Below, in pieces: positions 6,796 to 22,495 of a DNA stretch of 64,000 bases. A model generated the notes under the pieces. The model did no database searches, was not told the origin of the DNA, and saw nothing but the letters and a program-made list of their open reading frames with translations. Numbering within the stretch: position 1 is the stretch's first letter; each line of letters opens with the position of its first letter. The DNA lies in NCBI GenBank assembly GCA_018816445.1, contig JAHIVO010000061.1:305-64304 (forward strand), given 5' to 3'. Source of the DNA: Patescibacteria group bacterium. GTDB lineage: Bacteria > Patescibacteriota > Patescibacteriia > UBA10025 > JAHIVO01. Made by a program: the position numbers and the translations under genes.

Positions 6796-6860
6796 CTCTT
6801 TCGTAGGTAATTTTATGTTTATGGTGCGCAACGTACGTTGCGCACTTTTTTTAATAGGAG

Positions 6861-6890
6861 TATATTTAATTATGGGTATATATTCATAAT
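6861..6890. promoter_or_regulatory. Conserved ~30-bp upstream element TATATTTAATTATGGGTATATATTCATAAT (paralog at 21365-21394)
   Basis: Near-identical sequence about 100 bp upstream of both Gly-rich DUF5320-like genes. Confidence 0.45.
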
Positions 6891-6994
6891 AATTCATTGT
6901 TAATAGTATAAAGTTTATAGTCGATTGCCATTAACAATAAACTATCAACTAAAAATAAAGGTCATTAATTAGTTATCCACAAGGAAATAAAACT

Positions 6995-7261
6995 ATGCCA
7001 AATTACGATGGTCAAGGTCCCGGATGGGGCGGCGGACCAGGCGCTGGCTGGGGATATGGTCCGTGCACCTGCCCGCCATTGGCTTCGCCAACAGGCGAAG
7101 GCAGGCGGGGCGCTGGTCGCGGTTGGGGACGCGGCTGGAGACGTAGAATTAAATGGAGTAAAGAGGATGAGATGAAAATGCTGGAAGATGAAGAAGCGGC
7201 TATAACAGAAGAGCTGGCTGAAATCCAAAAAGCCAAGCAGGAACTTAAAGCTGAACAATAA
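6995..7261 (+). CDS. Glycine-rich DUF5320-like protein with C-terminal coiled coil
   Basis: MPNYDGQGPGWGGGPGAGWGYGPC... followed by EDEMKMLEDEEAAITEELAEIQKAKQELKAEQ. Paralog at 21486-21806. The family assignment is from memory of the MPrgDGTGPmG...coiled-coil pattern. Confidence 0.55.
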   Translation: MPNYDGQGPGWGGGPGAGWGYGPCTCPPLASPTGEGRRGAGRGWGRGWRRRIKWSKEDEMKMLEDEEAAITEELAEIQKAKQELKAEQ

Positions 7262-7439
7262 CACCAGTCCCACTTGTTAATTGACAAGAATTAGGCTAGA
7301 GTATAAGAAAACAAGTGGGGCTAATTCTAGCCATTTAATTAAAATATCAAAATACAAAATTTAAATGGCAATTAATAATTTAGTTTTTAATTTTTTCAAT
7401 GTTATTTTCAATTTTTATAATTAAATTTTCATTTTTATT

Positions 7440-7715
7440 ATGACCAGGCCTCGTTTATGCAGAAGAGTAAAATTCAGACCGCGGACTACCTTTTTTAAGC
7501 CGCGCGGAGTTCCTTTGCGATCTTTGGATATTGTTGAATTATCAAAAGAAGAAGTTGAAGCTATGCGTTTAAAAAATATTTCAGGCTTAGACCAAACCGA
7601 ATGTGCCAAAGCTATGCGTACTTCACAAAGCACTTTCCAGCGCATATTATCTTCTGCTTATAATAAAATCAGCCAGGCAATAATTAAAGGCAAGGCAATT
7701 TCAATTCAAAAATAA
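7440..7715 (+). CDS. DUF134/UPF0251-family predicted DNA-binding protein
   Basis: MTRPRLCRRVKFRPRTTFFKPRG...ELSKEEVEAMRLKNISGLDQTECAKAMRTSQSTFQRIL, sigma-70 region-4-like HTH. Paralog at 22109-22384. Confidence 0.7.
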   Translation: MTRPRLCRRVKFRPRTTFFKPRGVPLRSLDIVELSKEEVEAMRLKNISGLDQTECAKAMRTSQSTFQRILSSAYNKISQAIIKGKAISIQK

Positions 7716-7717
7716 TA

Positions 7718-8857
7718 ATGCTTAATAAGATATTAAAATTTATATTTATATTCTCGACACTGTTGTTTTTTGCATTGCCTGTTTCAGCTAAAGATAACGA
7801 TAGTGTTGAAATTAACTTTTTTTACAGCGATACCTGCCCTCATTGCGCCAAAGAAGAGGTTTTTTTAGATGGGCTGGAACAGGAATTAGGCGATACAATC
7901 TTAATTAGCCGATATGAGGTGTCTGATAAGGATAATTTGGAGATATTTGAGAAGTTTATTGAATCGTCAGGCCAGGAAGTTAGGGGCGTGCCGGCCACTT
8001 TCATCGGCGATAAGGAAGTAATTGTGGGGTTCAACTCCAGCACTGATACAGGCCAGCGCATCAGGAATGTAATTAATGAATGCTTAAGTGAGTGTCCGGC
8101 CGATAATTCATTATTAGTTGATTTGCCGTTGTTCGGTGAAACGGATTTATCAAAATATTCATTGTTCGGTTTAACCGCCGTTGTGGCAGCCATTGACGGA
8201 TTCAATCCCTGCGCTATGTGGGTGCTGATTATCCTGATTGGATTTTTATTGGGCATGGAAAACCGGCGGCGCATGTGGACACTGGGCCTGACGTTTATTG
8301 CGGCCTCGGCTTTGGTTTACTTTATATTTTTAGCCGCCTGGCTGAAGTTTTTTCAGTTTATCGGGGTAGTCAGGCCGGTGCAGATTATTATTGGCTTAGT
8401 GGCTATTAGCGTGGCTATATATTATTTCCGGCGGTTTTGGAAATCACGTCCGGGTGAGTGTGAAGTGACCAATGTGGATCAGCGCCGCAAGATTACAGTG
8501 CGCATGAAAGCGGTTATTCAAAAGCGTTCTTTATTACTTGCCCTAATAGGAATTATTGGATTAGCTTTTGTGGTCAATTTGATTGAACTAGCCTGTTCAG
8601 CCGGTCTGCCTGCTATTTTTGCGCAGGTGCTGGCCTTAAGCGACTTGCCGTCCTGGCAGTATTATTTCTATCTGTTATTATATGTGATTATTTTCATGCT
8701 TGATGACATGATTGTATTTGCCATAGCCATGATAACTATGAAAGCGGCTGGCACTACAGGTAAGTACAGCCGTTATGCCACTTTAATCGGAGCTATTGTA
8801 ATACTGTTTTTAGGACTTTTGTTAATGTTAAAGCCAGAGTGGATTATGTTTGGTTAG
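7718..8857 (+). CDS. Membrane thiol-disulfide oxidoreductase: N-terminal thioredoxin-fold (CPHC) fused to a CcdA/DsbD-like transmembrane domain
   Basis: Signal peptide, FYSDTCPHCAKEE, then a polytopic domain with Cys in TM segments (DGFNPCAMW, LACSAGLP). Confidence 0.45.
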   Translation: MLNKILKFIFIFSTLLFFALPVSAKDNDSVEINFFYSDTCPHCAKEEVFLDGLEQELGDTILISRYEVSDKDNLEIFEKFIESSGQEVRGVPATFIGDKEVIVGFNSSTDTGQRIRNVINECLSECPADNSLLVDLPLFGETDLSKYSLFGLTAVVAAIDGFNPCAMWVLIILIGFLLGMENRRRMWTLGLTFIAASALVYFIFLAAWLKFFQFIGVVRPVQIIIGLVAISVAIYYFRRFWKSRPGECEVTNVDQRRKITVRMKAVIQKRSLLLALIGIIGLAFVVNLIELACSAGLPAIFAQVLALSDLPSWQYYFYLLLYVIIFMLDDMIVFAIAMITMKAAGTTGKYSRYATLIGAIVILFLGLLLMLKPEWIMFG

Positions 8858-13901: not shown

Positions 13902-14309
13902 CTATTTTGGCGGATTGTTTTTCATCAGTTGTTTTCGCCACCCGCCCAGCATTTTTCCAACCTCTACCAATGGAGGCGTGAGTTGGCTATATTTTCTGGT
14001 ATCCAGAACTTTCATTTCCCAGGCGATCTGCAGGAAAAATTTTAGGGCATCAAGCTTGGTTGAAGCACGCTCCACTACAGAGAGCTTCTTTTCCCTGGGT
14101 GAGTATCCGGCCAGAAGAATTAGTTCCAGAGCATCATAAAACAGCAGGTCAATCTTAGACCCGAGCGTAAAGCGGGACAGCCGCGGCAGGTTCGTCAAAT
14201 TCGCGTGCCATAACCTATACCCTGCCGCCAGTTTCTGTATAATGGGAATATCGACCGACAAATCCCTGGGGGGGGTAATCTTATTAATATGAAAACGCTT
14301 TTGACTCAT
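13902..14309 (-). CDS. avd: Avd-like accessory variability determinant (four-helix-bundle protein)
   Basis: LLAGYSPREKK (compare NIAEGYGR), FFLQIAWEMKVL and LVEVGKMLGGWRKQL resemble Avd / 23S-rRNA-IVS proteins. On the strand opposite to TR and RT, overlapping the RT start by 21 nt. Confidence 0.6.
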   Translation of the reverse strand: MSQKRFHINKITPPRDLSVDIPIIQKLAAGYRLWHANLTNLPRLSRFTLGSKIDLLFYDALELILLAGYSPREKKLSVVERASTKLDALKFFLQIAWEMKVLDTRKYSQLTPPLVEVGKMLGGWRKQLMKNNPPK

Positions 14310-15284
14310 GGGTTTAAGGATATTGTATCGATAGACAATCTATTGTCAGCCTGGCGTGAGTTTGTCCCGGGCAAAGCCGGGAAAAAGGATGTCAGGGAAT
14401 TTTACCGCCATCTGGCTGATAATATTATATCACTCCACGAGGAGCTTGAAAACGACACTTACCGACATGGCGGGTATATTCACTTCAGGATCTCCGATCC
14501 CAAGCCTAGGGATATTCACAAGGCAACCATCCGGGACAGGCTGGTGCACCATGCCATCTATCGCGTACTCTACCCCTTTTTAAGTGATACATTCATCGCC
14601 GATTCATATTCCTGCCAGTTGGGAAAGGGAACGCATCGGGCTATCAGAAGATTCCGGACTTTCGCCGGTCAGGTAAGCAGAAACAATACCCAAACCTGCT
14701 GGATATTAAAATGCGATATCAGGAAATTCTTTGCCAGCATTGACCATGCTATATTGATGAATATGCTAAGTGAGTATATTACTGACCAAAGAATTAATAC
14801 TTTATTGCGCGAGGTTATCCAGAGTTTCTGCTGGCAACCGGGCAAAGGTTTGCCGCTTGGCAATCTGACATCCCAGTTGTTCGTTAATGTGTATATGAAT
14901 GAGTTTGACCAATTCATGAAACATACATTAAAAGTCAAGTATTATCTGCGTTATGCTGATGATTTTGTTGTAATGTCTGATAACAGATCGTGGTTAAAAG
15001 GACTCATACCGATTATCAGTAATTTTCTGACGGTCAAACTCAAACTCACGCTTCATCCGAGCAAGGTATTTATTAAAACACTGGCTTCAGGAGTTGATTT
15101 TCTGGGCTGGGTGCATTTTCCGTATCATCAGGTACTCCGCACTTCCTCCAAAAGGCGCATGTTAAACAGGATTACTGAAAACCCGGAAACATCTACTATG
15201 CAGTCATATTTGGGTCTACTACAACATGGCAATGCATACAAGCTGGCAGAGCAGGTGATTAATCAGACCTATCTATGGAAGTAA
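14289..15284 (+). CDS. DGR reverse transcriptase
   Basis: RT motifs 1-7, YADDFVV (YxDD). The DGR-specific LGNLTSQLFVNVY ([I/L]GxxxSQ) replaces the retroviral QGxxxSP. N-terminal NLLSAWREF...VHHAIYRVL is typical of DGR RTs. Confidence 0.85.
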   Translation: MKTLLTHGFKDIVSIDNLLSAWREFVPGKAGKKDVREFYRHLADNIISLHEELENDTYRHGGYIHFRISDPKPRDIHKATIRDRLVHHAIYRVLYPFLSDTFIADSYSCQLGKGTHRAIRRFRTFAGQVSRNNTQTCWILKCDIRKFFASIDHAILMNMLSEYITDQRINTLLREVIQSFCWQPGKGLPLGNLTSQLFVNVYMNEFDQFMKHTLKVKYYLRYADDFVVMSDNRSWLKGLIPIISNFLTVKLKLTLHPSKVFIKTLASGVDFLGWVHFPYHQVLRTSSKRRMLNRITENPETSTMQSYLGLLQHGNAYKLAEQVINQTYLWK

Positions 15285-18242: not shown

Positions 18243-18662
18243 ATGAGTACAATAAAGAGATTTAGCATTTCTCTCGACAACGCCCTCCTGGAAAAATTTA
18301 AGAGGAAGATAATGACCAAAGGCTATGCCAACCGCTCACAGGCCATGGCGGATTTAATTAGGAAATCTTTGGTAAATATAGAATGGGATGCTTCGCAAGG
18401 CGAGGTTATTGGGACAGTTACCCTCGTGTACAACCATCACCGTAAGGATATCGTCAATCAGCTTGTCTCTTTACAGCATCAATTTCACCAAGGCATTCTC
18501 GCCACGACACACATTCACATGGACAAGGAAAATTGTTTGGAGGTTTTAGTGGTTAAGGGTAAGGCGAAAAAGATTCGAGAGGTTTATAATCAGTTGGGGA
18601 GACTTAAAGGAATTAAATTCAGCGATTTATCCACAGCCACCACCGGCAGGCATTTGACTTGA
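18243..18662 (+). CDS. nikR: Nickel-responsive regulator NikR
   Basis: N-terminal ribbon-helix-helix (KRFSISLDNALLEKF) and C-terminal metal-binding domain with H-rich motifs (HHRKD, HIHMD). Confidence 0.75.
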   Translation: MSTIKRFSISLDNALLEKFKRKIMTKGYANRSQAMADLIRKSLVNIEWDASQGEVIGTVTLVYNHHRKDIVNQLVSLQHQFHQGILATTHIHMDKENCLEVLVVKGKAKKIREVYNQLGRLKGIKFSDLSTATTGRHLT

Positions 18663-18740
18663 TCCTTAATTTTTTTTATAATAACAGTGTTACGATATTT
18701 AAATTCGTAATACTTATTAACTATTAAACTATAATAATTT

Positions 18741-19436
18741 ATGCACATTCCAGACGGATTTTTGAATTCCGGCACCTCGGGAAGCCTGATTGTGGCAGCA
18801 GTTGGGTTTTTAAGCTTGGCAGTGAGCCGGGTGAGGCAGGGATTTTTTGAGAAAGTAAGAACGGCAACACTGGCAACGCCAGAGGGCGCTGAATTCGGCA
18901 GCACTACGGTTGCCAAGCTGACCTCATACGGCCGAAATAAAATGTTTCGCATGGCGGTAGTCGGTGCTTTTGTGTTCGCCGCGCAGATGGTAGATTTTCC
19001 GGTGGTGCACGGAACATCCGGTCATCTTTTGGGCGGTGTGCTAGCGGCAATCCTGCTCGGACCCTGGGCAGGCATGTTGGTTATTGCCGCGGTTTTGGCC
19101 GTGCAGTCGCTGATGTTCGCTGACGGCGGCCTGGTGGCTTTGGGCGCTAATATTATTAATATGGGTGTTATTGGCGCTGTTGGCGGTTATTATGCTTATA
19201 GGTTTTTGTTTAAGCGAATTAAAAAAGTTTTGCCAGCGGCTTTTATTGCGGCTTGGCTGTCCGTGGTGGTTGCCGCTTCGGTTTGCGCGGTTGAATTGTC
19301 AGTTTCAGGCACGGAAAACCTGGCGCAGTCTTTTTCAGCCATGGCAGGTATTCACGCCCTGATTGGTTTGGGAGAGGGTCTGATTACCGTTATGGTTTTA
19401 ATCGGATTAAAGCATAAGGAGAAAAACAATGAATAA
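18741..19436 (+). CDS. cbiM: ECF-type cobalt/nickel transporter substrate-capture component CbiM/NikM
   Basis: Begins MHIPDGFL, the canonical CbiM N-terminus. Polytopic. Confidence 0.8.
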   Translation: MHIPDGFLNSGTSGSLIVAAVGFLSLAVSRVRQGFFEKVRTATLATPEGAEFGSTTVAKLTSYGRNKMFRMAVVGAFVFAAQMVDFPVVHGTSGHLLGGVLAAILLGPWAGMLVIAAVLAVQSLMFADGGLVALGANIINMGVIGAVGGYYAYRFLFKRIKKVLPAAFIAAWLSVVVAASVCAVELSVSGTENLAQSFSAMAGIHALIGLGEGLITVMVLIGLKHKEKNNE

Positions 19437-20840: not shown

Positions 20841-21364
20841 TTTAGTTAGAATGTCTTGTTAAATTAAAAATGGCTAGGCCGCAAACACCAAGTGAATAAA
20901 ATTGATGCTAGTTTTTTTCTGAATGAATATACGAAAAAATACTGCTCAAATTTGTTGAAAGCAAGATGGTTTGACTGCGGCCGTTTAATATAATTTTTAT
21001 AACGCATCTGATTGGAAAAAATATTTATTTTATTATACTACATCTGTTTTATTATACTATAATATTTGGCAATGTAAAGGTTTTTTAAAAATATTTTTTT
21101 AGGCACTTTAAAAGGAATTGAGTTATAAAATTAGAGGCGAAGAATTTCTAAGATTATATTCATTTATCTTATTGAACATTTTAAATGATTAAAAGGGTAG
21201 AGTGATAATTTTGGAGAATATGGCAGAGTTAGTGAAGTTGGTGAAGAGTAGAATAAGGGTAAGATAAGAAATTATTAAACAATTAAGTAAGTATTTAGAA
21301 AAAAGCAATATAGATTTAAAAAATGGTGATTGGTTCCTATACTTGACAAAAGAAGTTGGAGGAA

Positions 21365-21394
21365 TATACTTAATTATGGGTATATATTCATAAT
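21365..21394. promoter_or_regulatory. Conserved upstream element (paralog of 6861-6890); a TTGACA hexamer lies at 21343-21348
   Basis: ATATACTTAATTATGGGTATATATTCATAAT versus TATATTTAATTATGGGTATATATTCATAAT. Confidence 0.45.
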
Positions 21395-21485
21395 TGTTGA
21401 TAACTCATTAATTTAGCTAGTTTTGGGTAAATATTCAATATCAAAAAAGTCGAATTTAATAATTAACCAATAAGGAAATAAATAT

Positions 21486-21806
21486 ATGCCAAGACAAGAT
21501 AGTCAAGGTCCCAGATGGGGCGGCGGTCCAGGCGCTGGTTGGGGCATGGGACCCTGCGGTGCAGGTTGGGGTGGCGGCCCATGTTTCGGTAGAGGTGGAA
21601 GGCGAGGCCGAGGACGCGGCATGGGCTGGGGTTTCATGCCCAGCAGAATGTACGGCGGATATAATTACGGCTACCAACTAAGCAAGGATGACGAGCTGAA
21701 AATGATAGAAGATGAGGAAGCAGCCCTTAAAGGTGAGCTTGAGGCCTTACAGCAGGCCAAGCAGCAATTGCGATCCGAAAAAAATCCGCCAAAAGCGGGC
21801 AAGTAA
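21486..21806 (+). CDS. Glycine-rich DUF5320-like protein with C-terminal coiled coil (paralog of 6995-7261)
   Basis: MPRQDSQGPRWGGGPGAGWGMGPCGAGWGGGPC... followed by ELKMIEDEEAALKGELEALQQAKQQL. Confidence 0.55.
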   Translation: MPRQDSQGPRWGGGPGAGWGMGPCGAGWGGGPCFGRGGRRGRGRGMGWGFMPSRMYGGYNYGYQLSKDDELKMIEDEEAALKGELEALQQAKQQLRSEKNPPKAGK

Positions 21807-21916
21807 GATAGTCCTGTTCCATTAACTCTAAATAATGGGCTAGAGCTTTGAACATTCAACAGGACTATCTTTAGCCCAATTTTTAATCAGTTTATAATAG
21901 TAAATCAAATAAATTT

Positions 21917-22099
21917 ATGACAATAGGAGATCAGGCAGGAGGTGGCCGTGTATTAAGTGGCCGTGGTTTGGGACCGGCCGGTTCAAGTATTTGCGTTTGT
22001 CCGAAGTGTGACTATAAAGAAGCACACAAACGTGGTGTGCCCTGCAATCAGATATCGTGTCCTAAATGTGGAACAAAGATGAGGGGTGAAAATTGCTAG
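21917..22099 (+). CDS. Small Gly-rich N-terminus + 7-Cys zinc-ribbon-like protein
   Basis: GGGRVLSGRGLGPAG followed by CVCPKC...CNQISCPKC...C. Present only in cassette 2. Confidence 0.4.
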   Translation: MTIGDQAGGGRVLSGRGLGPAGSSICVCPKCDYKEAHKRGVPCNQISCPKCGTKMRGENC

Positions 22100-22108
22100 G
22101 GTATACAT

Positions 22109-22384
22109 ATGCCACGACCCCAATTATATCGGAGAATTAAATTTAGCCCACGAGTCACTTATTTTAAGCCGCAGGGTATTCCTTTGCGTGCTCTTGAAGT
22201 TGTAGAGTTAAGTAAAGAAGAAGCTGAAGCCTTGCGTTTGAAGAACGTGACCGGACTTGATCAGCATGAGTGCGCTAAAAAAATGCATACTTCGCAAAGC
22301 ACGTTTCAGCGTATTTTATCGTCAGCCTATCGTAAAATCAGCTATGCCCTGATAAAAGGTAAGGCCATTTCAATAGAGAAATAA
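22109..22384 (+). CDS. DUF134/UPF0251-family predicted DNA-binding protein (paralog of 7440-7715)
   Basis: About 70% identical to the 7440 product by eye. Confidence 0.7.
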   Translation: MPRPQLYRRIKFSPRVTYFKPQGIPLRALEVVELSKEEAEALRLKNVTGLDQHECAKKMHTSQSTFQRILSSAYRKISYALIKGKAISIEK

Positions 22385-22495
22385 AATATCATAAAAAGTA
22401 ATTAATTTTTTATATAAACCGTCTCATCTTCATTGTTGACAATTTTTTATTATGGTGATAATTTTAAAGTTAAGTATACTTAACTTATAATCACT

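What the first reader, a model, noticed from the sequence alone, without database searches (positions are those of the whole stretch)
6861..7715. Two paralogous DUF5320-like (Gly-rich + coiled coil) / DUF134 cassettes with conserved upstream and intergenic elements, each preceding metal/redox genes
Cassette 1 is 6995-7715; cassette 2 is 21486-22384.
They share:
- a ~30-bp upstream element (6861-6890 versus 21365-21394)
- a Gly-rich MP..D.QGP.WGGGPGAGWG.GPC protein with a C-terminal coiled coil
- a long-range hairpin containing GGCTAGAG between the two genes (7262-7345 versus 21807-21890)
- a DUF134 HTH protein, ~70% identical between cassettes.
Cassette 1 is followed by a thioredoxin-CcdA membrane oxidoreductase. 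Cassette 2 has an extra 7-Cys zinc-ribbon ORF and is followed by DtxR-FeoA-FeoB plus a FeoB-associated Cys protein.
The pairing, duplication and conserved cis elements suggest an uncharacterised, possibly metal- or redox-responsive, regulatory pair.
Basis: partly seen in the sequence, partly recalled or inferred. Interest (0 to 1): 0.55.

Follow-up and report, generated by a model that had tools for sequence, protein, structure and literature searches.

The report
DUF134–DUF5320 autoregulated metal/redox switch
Two copies of an unstudied gene pair (a small DNA-binding protein and a glycine-rich partner) each follow an identical 20-base palindrome, and that palindrome sits in front of the same gene family in over a hundred bacterial and archaeal species, which points to an old, untested regulator of iron/sulfur and thiol-redox genes.

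Summary
Both cassettes encode genuine DUF5320 and DUF134 proteins (Pfam). The shared upstream element is a 20-bp palindrome, TTATGGGTATATATTCATAA. It occurs exactly twice in the window, directly after a -10 box.

A scan of one genome per species with TTATGRRTATATAYYCATAA returned 120 loci. In 102 of them a DUF134 and/or DUF5320 gene lies next to the site, nearly always just downstream on the same strand. In Bacteria the site carries the -10 box; in Archaea it abuts a TATA box. It is therefore most likely the DUF134 family's own operator, and DUF134 (a sigma-region-4-like HTH) most likely an autorepressor.

Natural fusions join DUF134, the DUF5320 N-terminal motif and the cassette-2 zinc ribbon in one polypeptide, so the three ORFs form one unit.

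Co-transcribed genes are mostly:
- NifX/IssA-like Fe-S proteins
- Trx/DsbD-like membrane proteins
- YibE/F, ZIP, EncFtn and MinD/NUBPL-type ATPases

The intergenic "hairpin" has two interleaved helices supported by covariation. It is absent from Rfam and restricted to this sub-lineage.

The signal sensed (Fe-S, metal or thiol state) is inferred, not shown. I found no literature on any of this.

The parts
6838..6866 (+). Cassette 1 putative promoter: TTGCGC (6838-6843), 17-nt spacer, TATATT (6861-6866). It follows the terminator of the upstream M32 carboxypeptidase gene (6823-6846 plus a T-run).
   Evidence: Read from the sequence. The terminator is listed. The same geometry (hexamer, N16/17, TATAYT, 3 nt, palindrome) occurs in cassette 2 and L004. 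The -35 is weak (3/6) and was not called by the scan tool.
6870..6889 (.). Operator 1: the 20-bp palindrome TTATGGGTATATATTCATAA, proposed DUF134 binding site.
   Evidence: two copies in the window, 0-0.09 expected; the same palindrome lies in front of DUF134/DUF5320 operons in 102 of 120 loci.
6957..6964 (+). AAAGGTCA, the cassette-1 version of the leader motif AAAGGUCG found between operator and DUF5320 start in many Patescibacteria.
   Evidence: AAGGTCG occurs in 18 of 102 loci within 60 nt downstream of the operator against 0.29 expected, and never on the antisense side. Cassette 1 has one mismatch. Its function is unknown.
6995..7261 (+). DUF5320 paralogue 1 (88 aa): N-terminal motif MPNYDGQGPGWGGGPGAGWGYGPC, a Gly/Arg/Trp-rich middle, and a C-terminal heptad-leucine helix.
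   Evidence: PF17253, 28.0 bits. (identical to P0007, NCBI 'DUF5320 family protein'). (third-position bias).
7265..7332 (+). Intercistronic RNA element 1. P1 pairs 7265-7278 with 7310-7323. P2 pairs loop 7294-7300 (GGCUAGA) with 7326-7332 (UCUAGCC). An A/U-rich tail follows.
   Evidence: covariation over 9 homologous elements. One search lists a competing small hairpin at 7319-7332. No Rfam match.
7440..7715 (+). DUF134 paralogue 1 (91 aa), a sigma-region-4-like HTH protein and the proposed operator-binding repressor.
   Evidence: PF02001, 62.4 bits. (75% identical to paralogue 2, with the identical recognition helix TSQSTFQRILSSAY).
7718..8857 (+). Effector of cassette 1: a 379-aa protein with an N-terminal thioredoxin-like domain (CPHC) fused to a DsbD_2/CcdA-like membrane domain. 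Its start lies 3 nt after the DUF134 stop.
   Evidence: weak Trx hits. (43% identical to the gene after DUF134 in L006). (a cluster of 21 such proteins in operator-linked operons; a representative hits DsbD_2 at E = 3.5e-4, below the cut-off).
21343..21370 (+). Cassette 2 promoter: TTGACA, 16-nt spacer, TATACT.
   Evidence: 11 of 12 matches.
21374..21393 (.). Operator 2, identical to operator 1.
21486..21806 (+). DUF5320 paralogue 2 (106 aa).
   Evidence: PF17253, 45 bits. (homologues 76-86% identical over the aligned part).
21804..21884 (+). Intercistronic RNA element 2. P1 pairs 21804-21818 (including the UAA stop) with 21858-21872. P2 pairs loop 21837-21845 (GGGCUAGAG) with 21869-21877 (CUUUAGCCC). 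A U-tract follows at 21880-21884.
21917..22099 (+). Zinc-ribbon ORF (60 aa, 7 Cys; ...GRGLGPAGSSICVCPKC...GVPC...CPKCG...), a third module of the system.
   Evidence: orthologue in L130. (the same motif fused to the C-terminus of DUF134 in at least 14 archaeal loci, and stand-alone in 6 others). (fusions of DUF134, N-motif and Zn ribbon). (the ribbon folds at pLDDT 85-95 in a fusion).
22109..22384 (+). DUF134 paralogue 2 (91 aa).
   Evidence: 67.4 bits. (AF2 pLDDT 89.3). (HTH superposes on ECF sigma region 4).
22467..22486 (.). A different perfect palindrome, AAGTTAAGTATACTTAACTT, between a TTGACA-N17-TAATTT promoter and the dtxR start. It is probably the DtxR-family operator and marks a separate transcription unit (dtxR-feoA-feoB...).
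   Evidence: Read from the sequence. Promoter-like site. Not tested further.

Best explanation
Each cassette is a self-regulated operon of a module widespread in Patescibacteria, DPANN and other archaea.

**Proposed mechanism**
- DUF134 is a ~90-aa protein with a sigma-70-region-4-like helix-turn-helix packed on a small beta-sheet. It binds, probably as a dimer, to the palindrome TTATGRRTATATAYYCATAA.
- In most bacterial loci the palindrome's centre is the -10 box. In the window's sub-lineage it lies 3 nt after the -10, over the transcription start. In archaea it lies directly after the TATA box. Binding at any of these positions should block initiation, so DUF134 is an autorepressor.
- The first gene, DUF5320, and in cassette 2 the zinc-ribbon ORF, are detachable partner modules of DUF134. 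They share an N-terminal Gly-rich, Cys-containing motif (MPxxDGxGPxxGxGPxxGxGxGxC). In other lineages this motif is fused to the C-terminus of DUF134.
- The partners most likely sense iron-sulfur, metal or thiol-redox state and relieve repression. That would switch on the co-transcribed effector: in cassette 1, the Trx/DsbD-like membrane oxidoreductase.
- A structured RNA directly after the DUF5320 stop codon (terminator-like hairpin; two interleaved helices in this sub-lineage) probably lowers read-through into DUF134. This would keep the partner in excess over the repressor.
- Both window operators and both recognition helices are identical. The two paralogous cassettes should therefore cross-regulate and form one regulon with two differently equipped inputs.

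**Shown:** gene families; operator identity and its genome-wide linkage to DUF134/DUF5320; promoter geometry; fusions; RNA pairing and covariation; effector families.

**Inferred:** that DUF134 itself binds the palindrome; repression rather than activation; a physical DUF134-partner interaction; the nature of the signal; the role of the RNA.
For: **1. Operator specificity**
- Exactly two copies in 64 kb, both in front of the cassettes.
- All six protein-derived related loci with upstream sequence have it (L004, L005, L006, L128, L131, L133).
- The pattern scan of one genome per species gave 120 loci. DUF134 lies in 91, DUF5320 in 73, both in 62 and at least one in 102, typically 10-70 bp downstream on the same strand.
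- Of the 18 remaining loci, 8 are the same operon cut by a contig or locus end and 3 precede NifX-like genes.

**2. DUF134 is the common denominator**
- The operator persists where DUF5320 was not detected (29 loci).
- The invariant residues of DUF134 cluster in the third helix, T61 S62 Q63 T65 Q67 R68.
- Operator half-sites containing G go with SQSTFQR. AA/AA operators go mostly with SQPTFHR.

**3. Repressor geometry**
- Bacterial consensus: cTTGACA, 8 nt, TTATGGGTA[TATAYT]CATAA.
- Archaeal consensus: AAA..TTTAAATA, 2-3 nt, then the palindrome.
- Window c2: TTGACA-16-TATACT, 3 nt, then the palindrome.

**4. DNA-binding fold**
- AF2 pLDDT 89.3.
- The HTH superposes on ECF sigma region 4 at rmsd 0.5-0.9 A over about 50 residues.

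**5. Partner modules**
- Natural fusions exist of DUF134 with the DUF5320 N-motif alone, with the N-motif plus coiled coil, and with the N-motif plus Zn ribbon.
- Among 65 long DUF134 representatives, 12 carry Nitro_FeMo-Co, 6 carry DUF5320, and several carry zinc ribbons or HypA-like ribbons.
- The Zn ribbon is fused to DUF134 in at least 14 archaeal loci. One 66-aa protein is N-motif plus Zn ribbon.

**6. Regulon theme**

| Family | Count |
|---|---|
| Nitro_FeMo-Co / NifX-like | 25 |
| DsbD_2-like, with or without Trx | 21 |
| YibE/F | 9 |
| MinD/NUBPL-type ATPase | 6 |
| ABC ATPase | 5 |
| ZIP | 4 |
| Thioredoxin | 4 |
| DtxR | 3 |

A CDF-NifX fusion and EncFtn genes also occur. One downstream protein (L069) reads like a 1-Cys peroxiredoxin by eye; it was not scanned.

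**7. RNA**
- 27 of 33 DUF5320-to-next-gene spacers of at least 40 nt fold at -16 kcal/mol or lower.
- In the window-type element, 11 of 26 pairs have changes on both sides (7 of 500 shuffles reach this). The covariation score is 0.272 against 0.191 (1 of 500). 81.6% of cells are paired against at most 49.8% when slid.
- The P2 duplex beats shuffles in 8 of 9 sequences.
Against: - No experiment exists. Binding of DUF134 to the palindrome rests on co-occurrence only.
- The scan started from the palindrome. It therefore shows that the palindrome implies the system, not that every DUF134 gene has this operator. Few Firmicute or deltaproteobacterial DUF134 loci appeared.
- The recognition-helix/operator correlation is confounded by phylogeny (Patescibacteria against archaea).
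- AF2 gave no confident structure or docking for the N-motif in a natural three-part fusion (residues 101-129 at pLDDT below 50, pTM 0.54). A direct interaction is unproven.
- The regulon mixes uptake (Feo nearby, ZIP), efflux (CDF), storage (EncFtn, IssA-like) and thiol-redox genes, so the signal cannot be read from it.
- In cassette 1 an AT-rich 100-nt spacer with promoter-like hexamers precedes DUF134. DUF134 may have its own promoter.
- Sterically the RNA is unusual: P1 and P2 3' strands abut or overlap by 0-2 nt. P1-base and P2 may be alternatives rather than a simultaneous pseudoknot.
Confidence: 0.7

Rival explanations
1. DUF134 is the autorepressor as above, but DUF5320 is cargo rather than sensor. 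On this reading it is an abundant Gly/Trp/Arg-rich, single-Cys, leucine-zipper protein that binds or nucleates anionic iron-sulfur species, like the C-terminal tail of the thioferrate storage protein IssA. It is simply the first effector of the regulon. Sensing is done by DUF134 itself or by the Zn ribbon.
For: - The IssA tail is described as cationic, aromatic (Trp) and Gly-rich, carrying the protein's only Cys, and is proposed to wrap thioferrate (PMC5524996, read). DUF5320 has the same chemistry (sequences).
- IPR003731/Nitro_FeMo-Co proteins are the commonest effectors. Some carry Gly/Arg tails.
- EncFtn sits beside DUF5320 in L004, L005, L130 and L131.
- DUF5320 comes first in the operon and is followed by a terminator-like hairpin, as expected for a highly expressed product.
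Against: - The N-motif is repeatedly fused to the C-terminus of the DNA-binding protein, and the Met-Pro is kept even in fusions. That is more typical of a regulatory module than of storage cargo.
- Fusions often lack the Arg/Gly-rich middle and the zipper.
Confidence: 0.2
2. The palindrome is the site of a different, global regulator (for example ArgR, Fur/PerR, DtxR or NikR homologues), and DUF134/DUF5320 are merely regulated genes.
For: - The archaeal and AT-rich version, TTATGAATATATATTCATAA, fits the ARG-box consensus. One scan hit (L047, Legionella) is a true tandem ARG box beside argR.
- The window encodes NikR, DtxR and Fur homologues.
Against: - Single boxes, not tandem ones, and no arginine genes nearby.
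- The G-rich Patescibacteria version departs from the ARG box.
- The site tracks DUF134/DUF5320 in both domains, irrespective of which other regulators a genome has.
- dtxR-feoAB in the window has a different palindrome (22467-22486).
- The conserved recognition helix of DUF134 parallels the conserved operator.
Confidence: 0.06
3. The pair is a type II toxin-antitoxin-like or other selfish two-gene module, with an HTH antitoxin, a small partner and an autoregulated palindromic operator.
For: - Two small adjacent genes behind a promoter-overlapping palindrome, duplicated in one genome.
- Weak Xre-like antitoxin HTH hits.
Against: - DUF134 is 70-85% identical across many Patescibacteria lineages, with more than 3000 close homologues. 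It is not patchy or rapidly evolving.
- It is constantly linked to housekeeping metal/redox effectors in the same operon.
- The two partners are frequently fused.
- No relevant PADLOC hit.
Confidence: 0.03
4. The intergenic RNA is only an intrinsic terminator or 3'-end stabiliser for the DUF5320 transcript. The loop-to-tail pairing (P2) has no separate regulatory role.
For: - Most Patescibacteria loci have a plain or two-tier hairpin at the same place, often with a U-tract.
- In 6 of the 9 window-type elements P2 is followed by a U-run.
- The motif is confined to one sub-lineage.
Against: - P2 is maintained by compensatory changes: GGCUAGA/UCUAGCC, AGGUUGA/UCAACCU, GUUGGGCU/AGCCCAAC.
- Loop lengths are nearly constant, L1 12-15 nt and L2 mostly 10 nt.
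- L004 and L133 lack a U-tract yet keep both helices.
- P1 includes the stop codon, so a terminating ribosome must open it, which suggests coupling to translation.
Confidence: 0.45

Closest known systems
ECF sigma-factor region 4 (-35 binding domain) with its anti-sigma factors, e.g. SigR/RsrA, SigD4/RsdA, SigL/RslA
   Same: The three-helix HTH of DUF134 superposes on sigma region 4 at rmsd 0.5-0.9 A over about 50 residues, and Pfam Sigma70_r4_2 gives a sub-threshold hit. In outline it is a small DNA-binding module controlled by a Cys- or zinc-containing partner, and thioredoxin-type genes are among the targets. That resembles the zinc-anti-sigma thiol switch.
   Different: DUF134 has no sigma region 2 and is only 91 aa. 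It has an N-terminal conserved strand region and a C-terminal strand. Its site is a 20-bp palindrome over the -10/TSS or after the TATA box, not a -35 element. It also occurs in archaea, which have no sigma factors. The partners (DUF5320, Zn ribbon) are unrelated to known anti-sigma domains.
IssA (PF2025) iron-sulfur (thioferrate) storage protein of Pyrococcus furiosus and 'IssX' relatives (PMC5524996)
   Same: IPR003731/Nitro_FeMo-Co proteins are the commonest genes in DUF134 operons. The IssA tail (Gly, Trp/aromatic, Arg, single Cys) has the same composition as the DUF5320 N-terminal two-thirds. issA is induced by sulfide only when iron is sufficient, according to that paper.
   Different: DUF5320 has no IPR003731 domain and ends in a leucine-zipper-like helix. 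No sequence homology to IssA was tested. The window cassettes themselves carry no NifX-like gene.
Classical autoregulated metallo-repressors (DtxR/IdeR, Fur, NikR), all present in the same window
   Same: A palindromic operator overlapping the core promoter of an operon that encodes the regulator plus metal-homeostasis genes.
   Different: The protein fold is unrelated. The minimal DUF134 has no recognisable metal-binding domain. Sensing seems delegated to separate or fused small modules. The operator sequence is conserved across the two domains of life.
ARG box / ArgR operators
   Same: The AA/AA form of the palindrome matches TNTGAATWWWWATTCANW. One scan hit is a real ARG-box pair.
   Different: Single site, not a tandem pair. 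The G-containing form in Patescibacteria does not fit. No arginine genes are nearby, and the linkage is to DUF134.
SorC/DeoR-type N-terminal HTH (B. subtilis DeoR-operator complex 7bhy/8r7y)
   Same: It is the best sequence-profile neighbour among solved structures (E = 0.086) and a Foldseek hit. It is a sigma-4-like HTH that binds a palindromic operator as a repressor.
   Different: The similarity is not significant. DeoR has a large sugar-phosphate-binding effector domain.

Membership tests
DUF134 / UPF0251 (PF02001) | Pfam score above the gathering cut-off over the full domain | tested here: met
   62.4 and 67.4 bits against a cut-off of 27, covering profile positions 5-91 of 98.
DUF134 / UPF0251 (PF02001) | Conserved N-terminal RP(R/K)..R...F.P....FKP.G and HTH with SQ(S/P)TF.R | tested here: met
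   these columns are invariant or nearly invariant, and both window copies have them.
DUF5320 (PF17253) | Pfam score above the gathering cut-off | tested here: met
   45.0 bits (c2) and 28.0 bits (c1, just above 27). The c1 protein is identical to an NCBI protein named DUF5320 family.
DUF5320 (PF17253) | N-terminal MPxxDGxGP...G.G.C motif followed by a C-terminal amphipathic helix | tested here: met
   Alignment. The heptad leucines were read from the sequence. The helix itself was not modelled.
Sigma-70 family sigma factor | Region 2 (-10 recognition and core binding) in addition to region 4 | tested here: not met
   The protein is 91 aa. Only region-4-like hits appear, all below the Pfam cut-offs, and NCBIfam sigma70-ECF scores 24.4 against 42.9. 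The family also occurs in archaea.
Autoregulated operator-repressor pair | A specific palindromic site overlapping the core promoter of the regulator's own operon, conserved with the regulator | tested here: met
Autoregulated operator-repressor pair | Direct binding of the regulator to the site and repression | not testable with these tools
   Needs EMSA, footprinting or reporter assays.
IssA-type Fe-S storage proteins | IPR003731 / Nitro_FeMo-Co globular domain | tested here: not met
   no PF02579 hit in either DUF5320 or in the Zn-ribbon ORF. The domain is present in neighbouring genes of other loci and fused to DUF134.
IssA-type Fe-S storage proteins | Cationic Gly/aromatic-rich tail with a single Cys | tested here: inconclusive
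   The composition matches by inspection against the description in PMC5524996. No alignment with IssA was possible.
Intrinsic (rho-independent) terminator | G+C-rich stem-loop followed directly by a U-tract | tested here: inconclusive
   One search lists only the small alternative hairpin at 7319-7332 in c1. One search lists nothing for c2 on the + strand, because loops over 8 nt are outside the tool's definition. c2 P2 is followed by AAUUUUU.
H-type RNA pseudoknot | Two interleaved helices, each supported by covariation | tested here: met
   P1 has 7 and P2 has 4 pairs with changes on both sides. One search gives the shuffle tests. Whether both helices form at once was not tested.
Any Rfam family | Match to a curated covariance model | tested here: not met
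   only tRNAs reach threshold, and nothing plausible appears at E up to 1-5 over the elements.
Type II toxin-antitoxin / defence module | Match to known TA or defence families; patchy, mobile distribution | tested here: not met
   (PADLOC: only a weak CARF-HTH hit). (highly conserved, vertical-looking distribution).
ARG box / ArgR regulon | Tandem 18-bp boxes 2-3 bp apart, upstream of arginine genes | tested here: not met
   single palindromes upstream of DUF5320/DUF134. Only L047 fits the ARG-box pattern.

The most novel reading that the evidence does not exclude
DUF134 with its Gly-rich Cys peptide (DUF5320 N-motif) and zinc ribbon is an ancient iron-sulfur status switch shared by Bacteria and Archaea.

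- The Gly/Trp/Arg peptide binds an FeS or thioferrate-like species, as the IssA tail is proposed to do, and so toggles a sigma-4-like repressor.
- The repressor sits on a 20-bp operator that has stayed almost unchanged across the two domains. The operator has been re-positioned to suit each transcription machinery: -10 box in Bacteria, TATA-proximal in Archaea.
- This would make it the regulator of IssA/NifX-like Fe-S storage and trafficking, for which no regulator appears in the papers I could read. It would also make it a core homeostasis circuit of the reduced genomes of Patescibacteria and DPANN.
- In the window's lineage an added pseudoknot would couple DUF5320 translation to DUF134 expression.
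Probability: 0.25. Interest if true: 0.85.

Novelty: new variant of a known kind. Interest (0 to 1): 0.66.

Why it matters
**A testable handle on two DUF families.** DUF134/UPF0251 comprises about 4100 clusters at 50% identity. Together with DUF5320 it is widespread in anaerobes, Patescibacteria and DPANN archaea. I found no functional literature on either.

This analysis supplies:
- a precise predicted operator
- a promoter geometry that predicts repression in both domains
- a predicted three-part protein unit
- a candidate regulon centred on Fe-S/NifX-like proteins, thiol-disulfide membrane proteins and metal transporters

**Why a specialist might care.**
- Few transcription-factor/operator pairs are conserved almost base-for-base between Bacteria and Archaea.
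- The papers on the Fe-S storage protein IssA that I could read name no regulator for it. That question becomes directly testable.

**For ultra-small-genome organisms.** Few regulators are retained in such genomes. A duplicated copy of this module beside nickel, iron and thiol-redox genes suggests it is a main homeostasis circuit.

**RNA motifs.** Two RNA motifs absent from Rfam come out of the same loci: the post-DUF5320 pseudoknot and the UAAAGGUCG leader hairpin.

Tried and rejected
- **Rfam.** Gathering threshold on the whole window, and E-value mode on both elements and 11 loci. Only tRNAs and noise.
- **PDB by sequence.** No solved relative of DUF134, DUF5320 or the Zn ribbon.
- **AF2 of a natural DUF134 + N-motif + Zn-ribbon fusion.** The aim was to see whether the motif docks on DUF134. 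The motif came out at pLDDT below 50 with no confident inter-domain packing, so the result is uninformative.
- **MAFFT alignment of the RNA elements.** It misaligned P2. I replaced it with motif-anchored segments of equal length. This anchoring is a caveat on the covariation numbers.
- **Literature searches.** DUF134, UPF0251, COG1342, PF02001, DUF5320 and the palindrome string found nothing functional.
- **Defence/TA reading.** Rejected on the PADLOC result and the conservation pattern.
- **Secreted Gly-rich peptide (bacteriocin/RiPP).** Considered because ABC transporters and thiol oxidoreductases follow some operons. Rejected: there is no leader or signal peptide, the motif is fused to a cytoplasmic DNA-binding protein, and the family occurs in archaea beside NifX/MinD genes.
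- **ArgR/ARG-box reading.** Rejected.
- **Not done.** I did not determine what fraction of all DUF134 genes outside Patescibacteria and archaea carry this operator.


Full report
**1. What is in the window**

ORF listing and sequence reading confirm both cassettes at the stated coordinates.
- Cassette 1: DUF5320 at 6995-7261 and DUF134 at 7440-7715. A 379-aa thioredoxin-like/membrane protein starts 3 nt after the DUF134 stop (7718-8857).
- Cassette 2: DUF5320 at 21486-21806, a 60-aa ORF with seven Cys at 21917-22099, and DUF134 at 22109-22384. DtxR, FeoA, FeoB, a FeoB-associated Cys-rich peptide, YibE/F and a Fur-family protein follow.

Pfam places both Gly-rich proteins in PF17253 (28.0 and 45.0 bits, cut-off 27) and both HTH proteins in PF02001 (62.4 and 67.4 bits). 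The DUF134 copies are 75% identical and the DUF5320 copies 43%.

The host is a member of the Patescibacteria (CPR). Both window proteins are identical to NCBI entries from 'Patescibacteria group bacterium'.

The Gly-rich ORFs are not artefacts of a GC-rich spacer. Among nine orthologues, differences in the first 25 codons fall 140/87/400 on codon positions 1/2/3. The invariant WGGGPGAGWG stretch changes only synonymously.

**2. The upstream element is an operator, not a generic promoter**

The two cassettes share 25 identical bases (6866-6890 and 21370-21394). No third copy exists in 64 kb even at 3 mismatches. The core is the palindrome TTATGGGTATATATTCATAA (6870-6889 and 21374-21393, 0.09 expected).

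The same palindrome stands upstream of the operon in every related locus that was fetched through its proteins and has upstream sequence: L004, L005, L006, L128, L131 and L133. In L004 and L005 an EncFtn gene has been inserted between the palindrome and DUF5320.

I then scanned one genome per species (GTDB representatives) for TTATGRRTATATAYYCATAA. For a 596-Gb collection, chance expectation is about 9 hits at even base composition and a few hundred if all DNA were 30% G+C (my own arithmetic).

HMMs built from the window and first homologues gave these counts:

| Gene found in the locus | Loci (of 120) |
|---|---|
| DUF134 ORF | 91 |
| DUF5320 ORF | 73 |
| Both | 62 |
| At least one | 102 |

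In most of these loci the first gene starts 10-70 bp after the palindrome on the same strand.

The 18 loci without a hit break down as follows:
- Eight are the same kind of operon cut by the contig or locus end. They are recognisable by the promoter, the leader motif or the first DUF134 codons.
- Three (L080, L084, L102) have the palindrome in front of a NifX-like gene.
- The remaining seven look like chance or other sites. One (L047, Legionella) is a real tandem ARG box beside argR.

Hosts include many Patescibacteria lineages, DPANN archaea, Methanobrevibacter, Asgard archaea, Babeliales, Omnitrophota and Kiritimatiellales.

**3. Promoter geometry predicts repression in both domains**

- **80 bacterial or unassigned loci.** The consensus is cTTGACA, 8 nt, TTATGGGTA[TATAYT]CATAA. 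The -10 hexamer is the centre of the palindrome.
- **24 archaeal loci.** The consensus is AAA..TTTAAATA, 2-3 nt, then the palindrome. The site fills the gap between the BRE/TATA box and the expected start.
- **The window's sub-lineage (c1, c2, L004).** The promoter is shifted: TTGACA-N16/17-TATAYT, 3 nt, then the palindrome. The site covers the start point. The scan tool scores c2 at 11 of 12 matches.

A protein bound at any of these positions should exclude RNA polymerase or TBP/TFB. This step is inference from established promoter architecture.

**4. Which protein binds?**

DUF134 is the common denominator. The palindrome persists in 29 loci where no DUF5320 was detected.
- An AF2 model of the cassette-2 protein is confident (pLDDT 89.3). 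It has three short strands and three helices at 36-48, 52-58 and 63-83.
- Foldseek aligns the helices to ECF sigma region 4 and to DeoR/SorC N-domains at rmsd 0.5-0.9 A over about 50 residues. No whole-protein match appears.
- No family member has a solved structure by sequence search.
- The invariant residues of 77 close homologues cluster at the start of the third helix: T61 S62 Q63 T65 Q67 R68.
- Operators with G in the variable dinucleotide go with SQSTFQR (32 of 34 scorable). AA/AA operators go mostly with SQPTFHR. This fits direct read-out but is confounded by phylogeny.

Both window paralogues have the same helix and the same operator, so cross-regulation is expected (inference).

**5. 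DUF5320 and the zinc-ribbon ORF are modules of the same unit**

A homologue search seeded with a fused protein from a Peregrinibacteria locus found many natural fusions:
- DUF134 with the DUF5320 N-terminal motif MPxxDGTGPxGxGPxTGRGLGxC (P0135-P0138 and others).
- The same plus a C-terminal coiled coil (P0139-P0141, P0172).
- DUF134 with the motif and a zinc ribbon CxCPxCG...GxPC...CPxCG (P0168, P0169, P0174-P0178, P0181, P0182, P0189, P0191).

The ribbon is the motif of the cassette-2 60-aa ORF. It also occurs in these forms:
- An orthologous stand-alone ORF in L130, and stand-alone ORFs in five further loci (L025, L036, L069, L104, L123).
- C-terminal fusions to DUF134 in at least 14 archaeal loci.
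- A 66-aa protein made of N-motif plus ribbon (L069).

Among 65 long representatives of the family, 12 carry a Nitro_FeMo-Co domain, 6 carry DUF5320, and several carry ribbons. The whole family has about 4100 clusters at 50% identity.

Such 'Rosetta-stone' fusions are standard evidence for a functional, usually physical, link. AF2 on one three-part fusion folded DUF134 and the ribbon well but left the Gly-rich motif unstructured and undocked. The interaction is therefore not shown.

**6. What the system controls**

Genes chained behind the operator cluster as follows:

| Family | Count |
|---|---|
| Nitro_FeMo-Co / NifX-like | 25 |
| DsbD_2-like membrane proteins, with or without an N-terminal thioredoxin domain | 21 |
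| YibE/F | 9 |
| MinD/NUBPL-type ATPases | 6 |
| ABC ATPases | 5 |
| ZIP | 4 |
| Thioredoxin | 4 |
| Split ArsP-type permease | 3 + 3 |
| DtxR | 3 |

- One of the NifX-like proteins is a CDF-transporter fusion.
- The DsbD_2-like cluster contains a close relative (L006) of the cassette-1 effector, which is 43% identical to it.
- EncFtn also occurs. One downstream protein (L069) reads like a 1-Cys peroxiredoxin by eye; it was not scanned.

The theme is iron-sulfur/metal handling and extracytoplasmic thiol chemistry.

A paper found through the Nitro_FeMo-Co domain gives a lead (PMC5524996, read). [quoted passage not shown] The gene is induced by sulfide only when iron is sufficient. DUF5320 has the chemistry of that tail, and several NifX-like proteins in DUF134 operons carry Gly/Arg tails. 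This is a resemblance, not a tested homology.

**7. The intergenic RNA**

A strong hairpin directly after the DUF5320 stop is general in Patescibacteria. 27 of 33 spacers of at least 40 nt fold at -16 kcal/mol or lower, and many have a U-tract or an A-tract/U-tract two-tier stem.

The window type is more elaborate and occurs in nine distinct sequences: c1, c2, L004, L127-L131 and L133.
- P1 is a 13-16-bp helix that starts at or within the stop codon.
- L1 is a 12-15-nt loop segment.
- P2 has its 5' strand, GGGCUAGAG or a variant, in the loop. About 10 nt separate it from the P1 3' strand. The P2 3' strand abuts or overlaps the end of P1.

Evidence for the two helices:
- The P2 duplex is better than shuffles in 8 of 9 sequences.
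- On motif-anchored segments, 81.6% of cells pair, against at most 49.8% when slid.
- 11 of 26 pairs change on both sides (7 of 500 shuffles reach this).
- The covariation score is 0.272 against 0.191 (1 of 500).

Caveats: only nine related sequences, and I chose the anchoring. No Rfam family matches.

Six of the nine elements have a U-run after P2, but L004 and L133 do not. I take the element to be a terminator or stability structure that sets the DUF5320:DUF134 ratio. Possible coupling to DUF5320 translation is a hypothesis.

**8. Comparison with the known, and verdict**

Mechanistically this is an ordinary kind of circuit: a small HTH autorepressor on a promoter-overlapping palindrome. The family, its operator, its partners and its regulon are undescribed in everything I could search.
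- It is not a sigma factor. It has no region 2 and it occurs in archaea.
- It is not an IssA family member. DUF5320 has no IPR003731 domain.
- It is not an ARG-box regulon, and it does not look like a toxin-antitoxin or defence module.

The cross-domain operator and the fusions take it further.

Still unknown: the signal, whether DUF5320 is sensor or cargo, and whether the operator holds for DUF134 genes in Firmicutes and other phyla that hardly appeared in the scan.

Noticed in passing
window 22436-22486: TTGACA-N17-TAATTT is followed by a perfect 20-bp palindrome, AAGTTAAGTATACTTAACTT (22467-22486), 10 nt before the dtxR start. It is probably a DtxR-family operator, so dtxR-feoAB is likely a separate, self-regulated unit next to cassette 2.
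   Followed up: partly
window 6957-6964 and about 21445-21453; L015, L017, L048, L055, L058, L067, L083, L099, L106, L118, L126 and others, 13-16 nt after the operator: A 5'-leader hairpin in Patescibacteria starts at the predicted transcript 5' end and has the conserved loop UAAAGGUCG. AAGGTCG occurs in 18 of 102 loci within 60 nt of the operator against 0.29 expected. Three of 4 consensus pairs covary. There is no Rfam match. In L004 and L005 the motif stays with DUF5320 although EncFtn is inserted after the operator. Its function is unknown.
   Followed up: partly
window 14289-15284 (+): A 331-aa reverse transcriptase (RVT_1, E = 5e-23) lies among ORFs without Pfam hits. It could belong to a retron, a diversity-generating retroelement or a group II intron.
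   Followed up: no
window 18243-19436 (+): NikR (NikR_C, 6e-29) is followed by CbiM, and by a PDGLE protein according to L001. This is a nickel/cobalt uptake unit just upstream of cassette 2. With DtxR, Fur and two DUF134 copies, the window is dense in metal regulators.
   Followed up: partly
L047 5885-5930 (Legionella MAG): The AT-rich form of the DUF134 operator is indistinguishable from an ARG box. This hit is a tandem ARG box next to argR. Motif-based regulon predictions could confuse the two.
   Followed up: partly
L004, L005, L130, L131 (relatives of the window cassettes): An 85-aa EncFtn-like (encapsulated-ferritin-type) gene sits directly beside DUF5320 in the same operon. L131 even has two DUF5320 genes flanking it. 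No encapsulin shell gene was seen in the fetched flanks.
   Followed up: no
L107 5760-5779: A perfect TTATGGGTATATACCCATAA lies 15 nt upstream of a [NiFe]-hydrogenase small-subunit gene, with no DUF134 within the 8 kb fetched. It is either a chance hit or a trans-regulated target.
   Followed up: no
P0192, P0196, P0200, P0201, P0208: Some archaeal DUF134 proteins carry an N-terminal domain listed as PF27353, which I did not look up.
   Followed up: no
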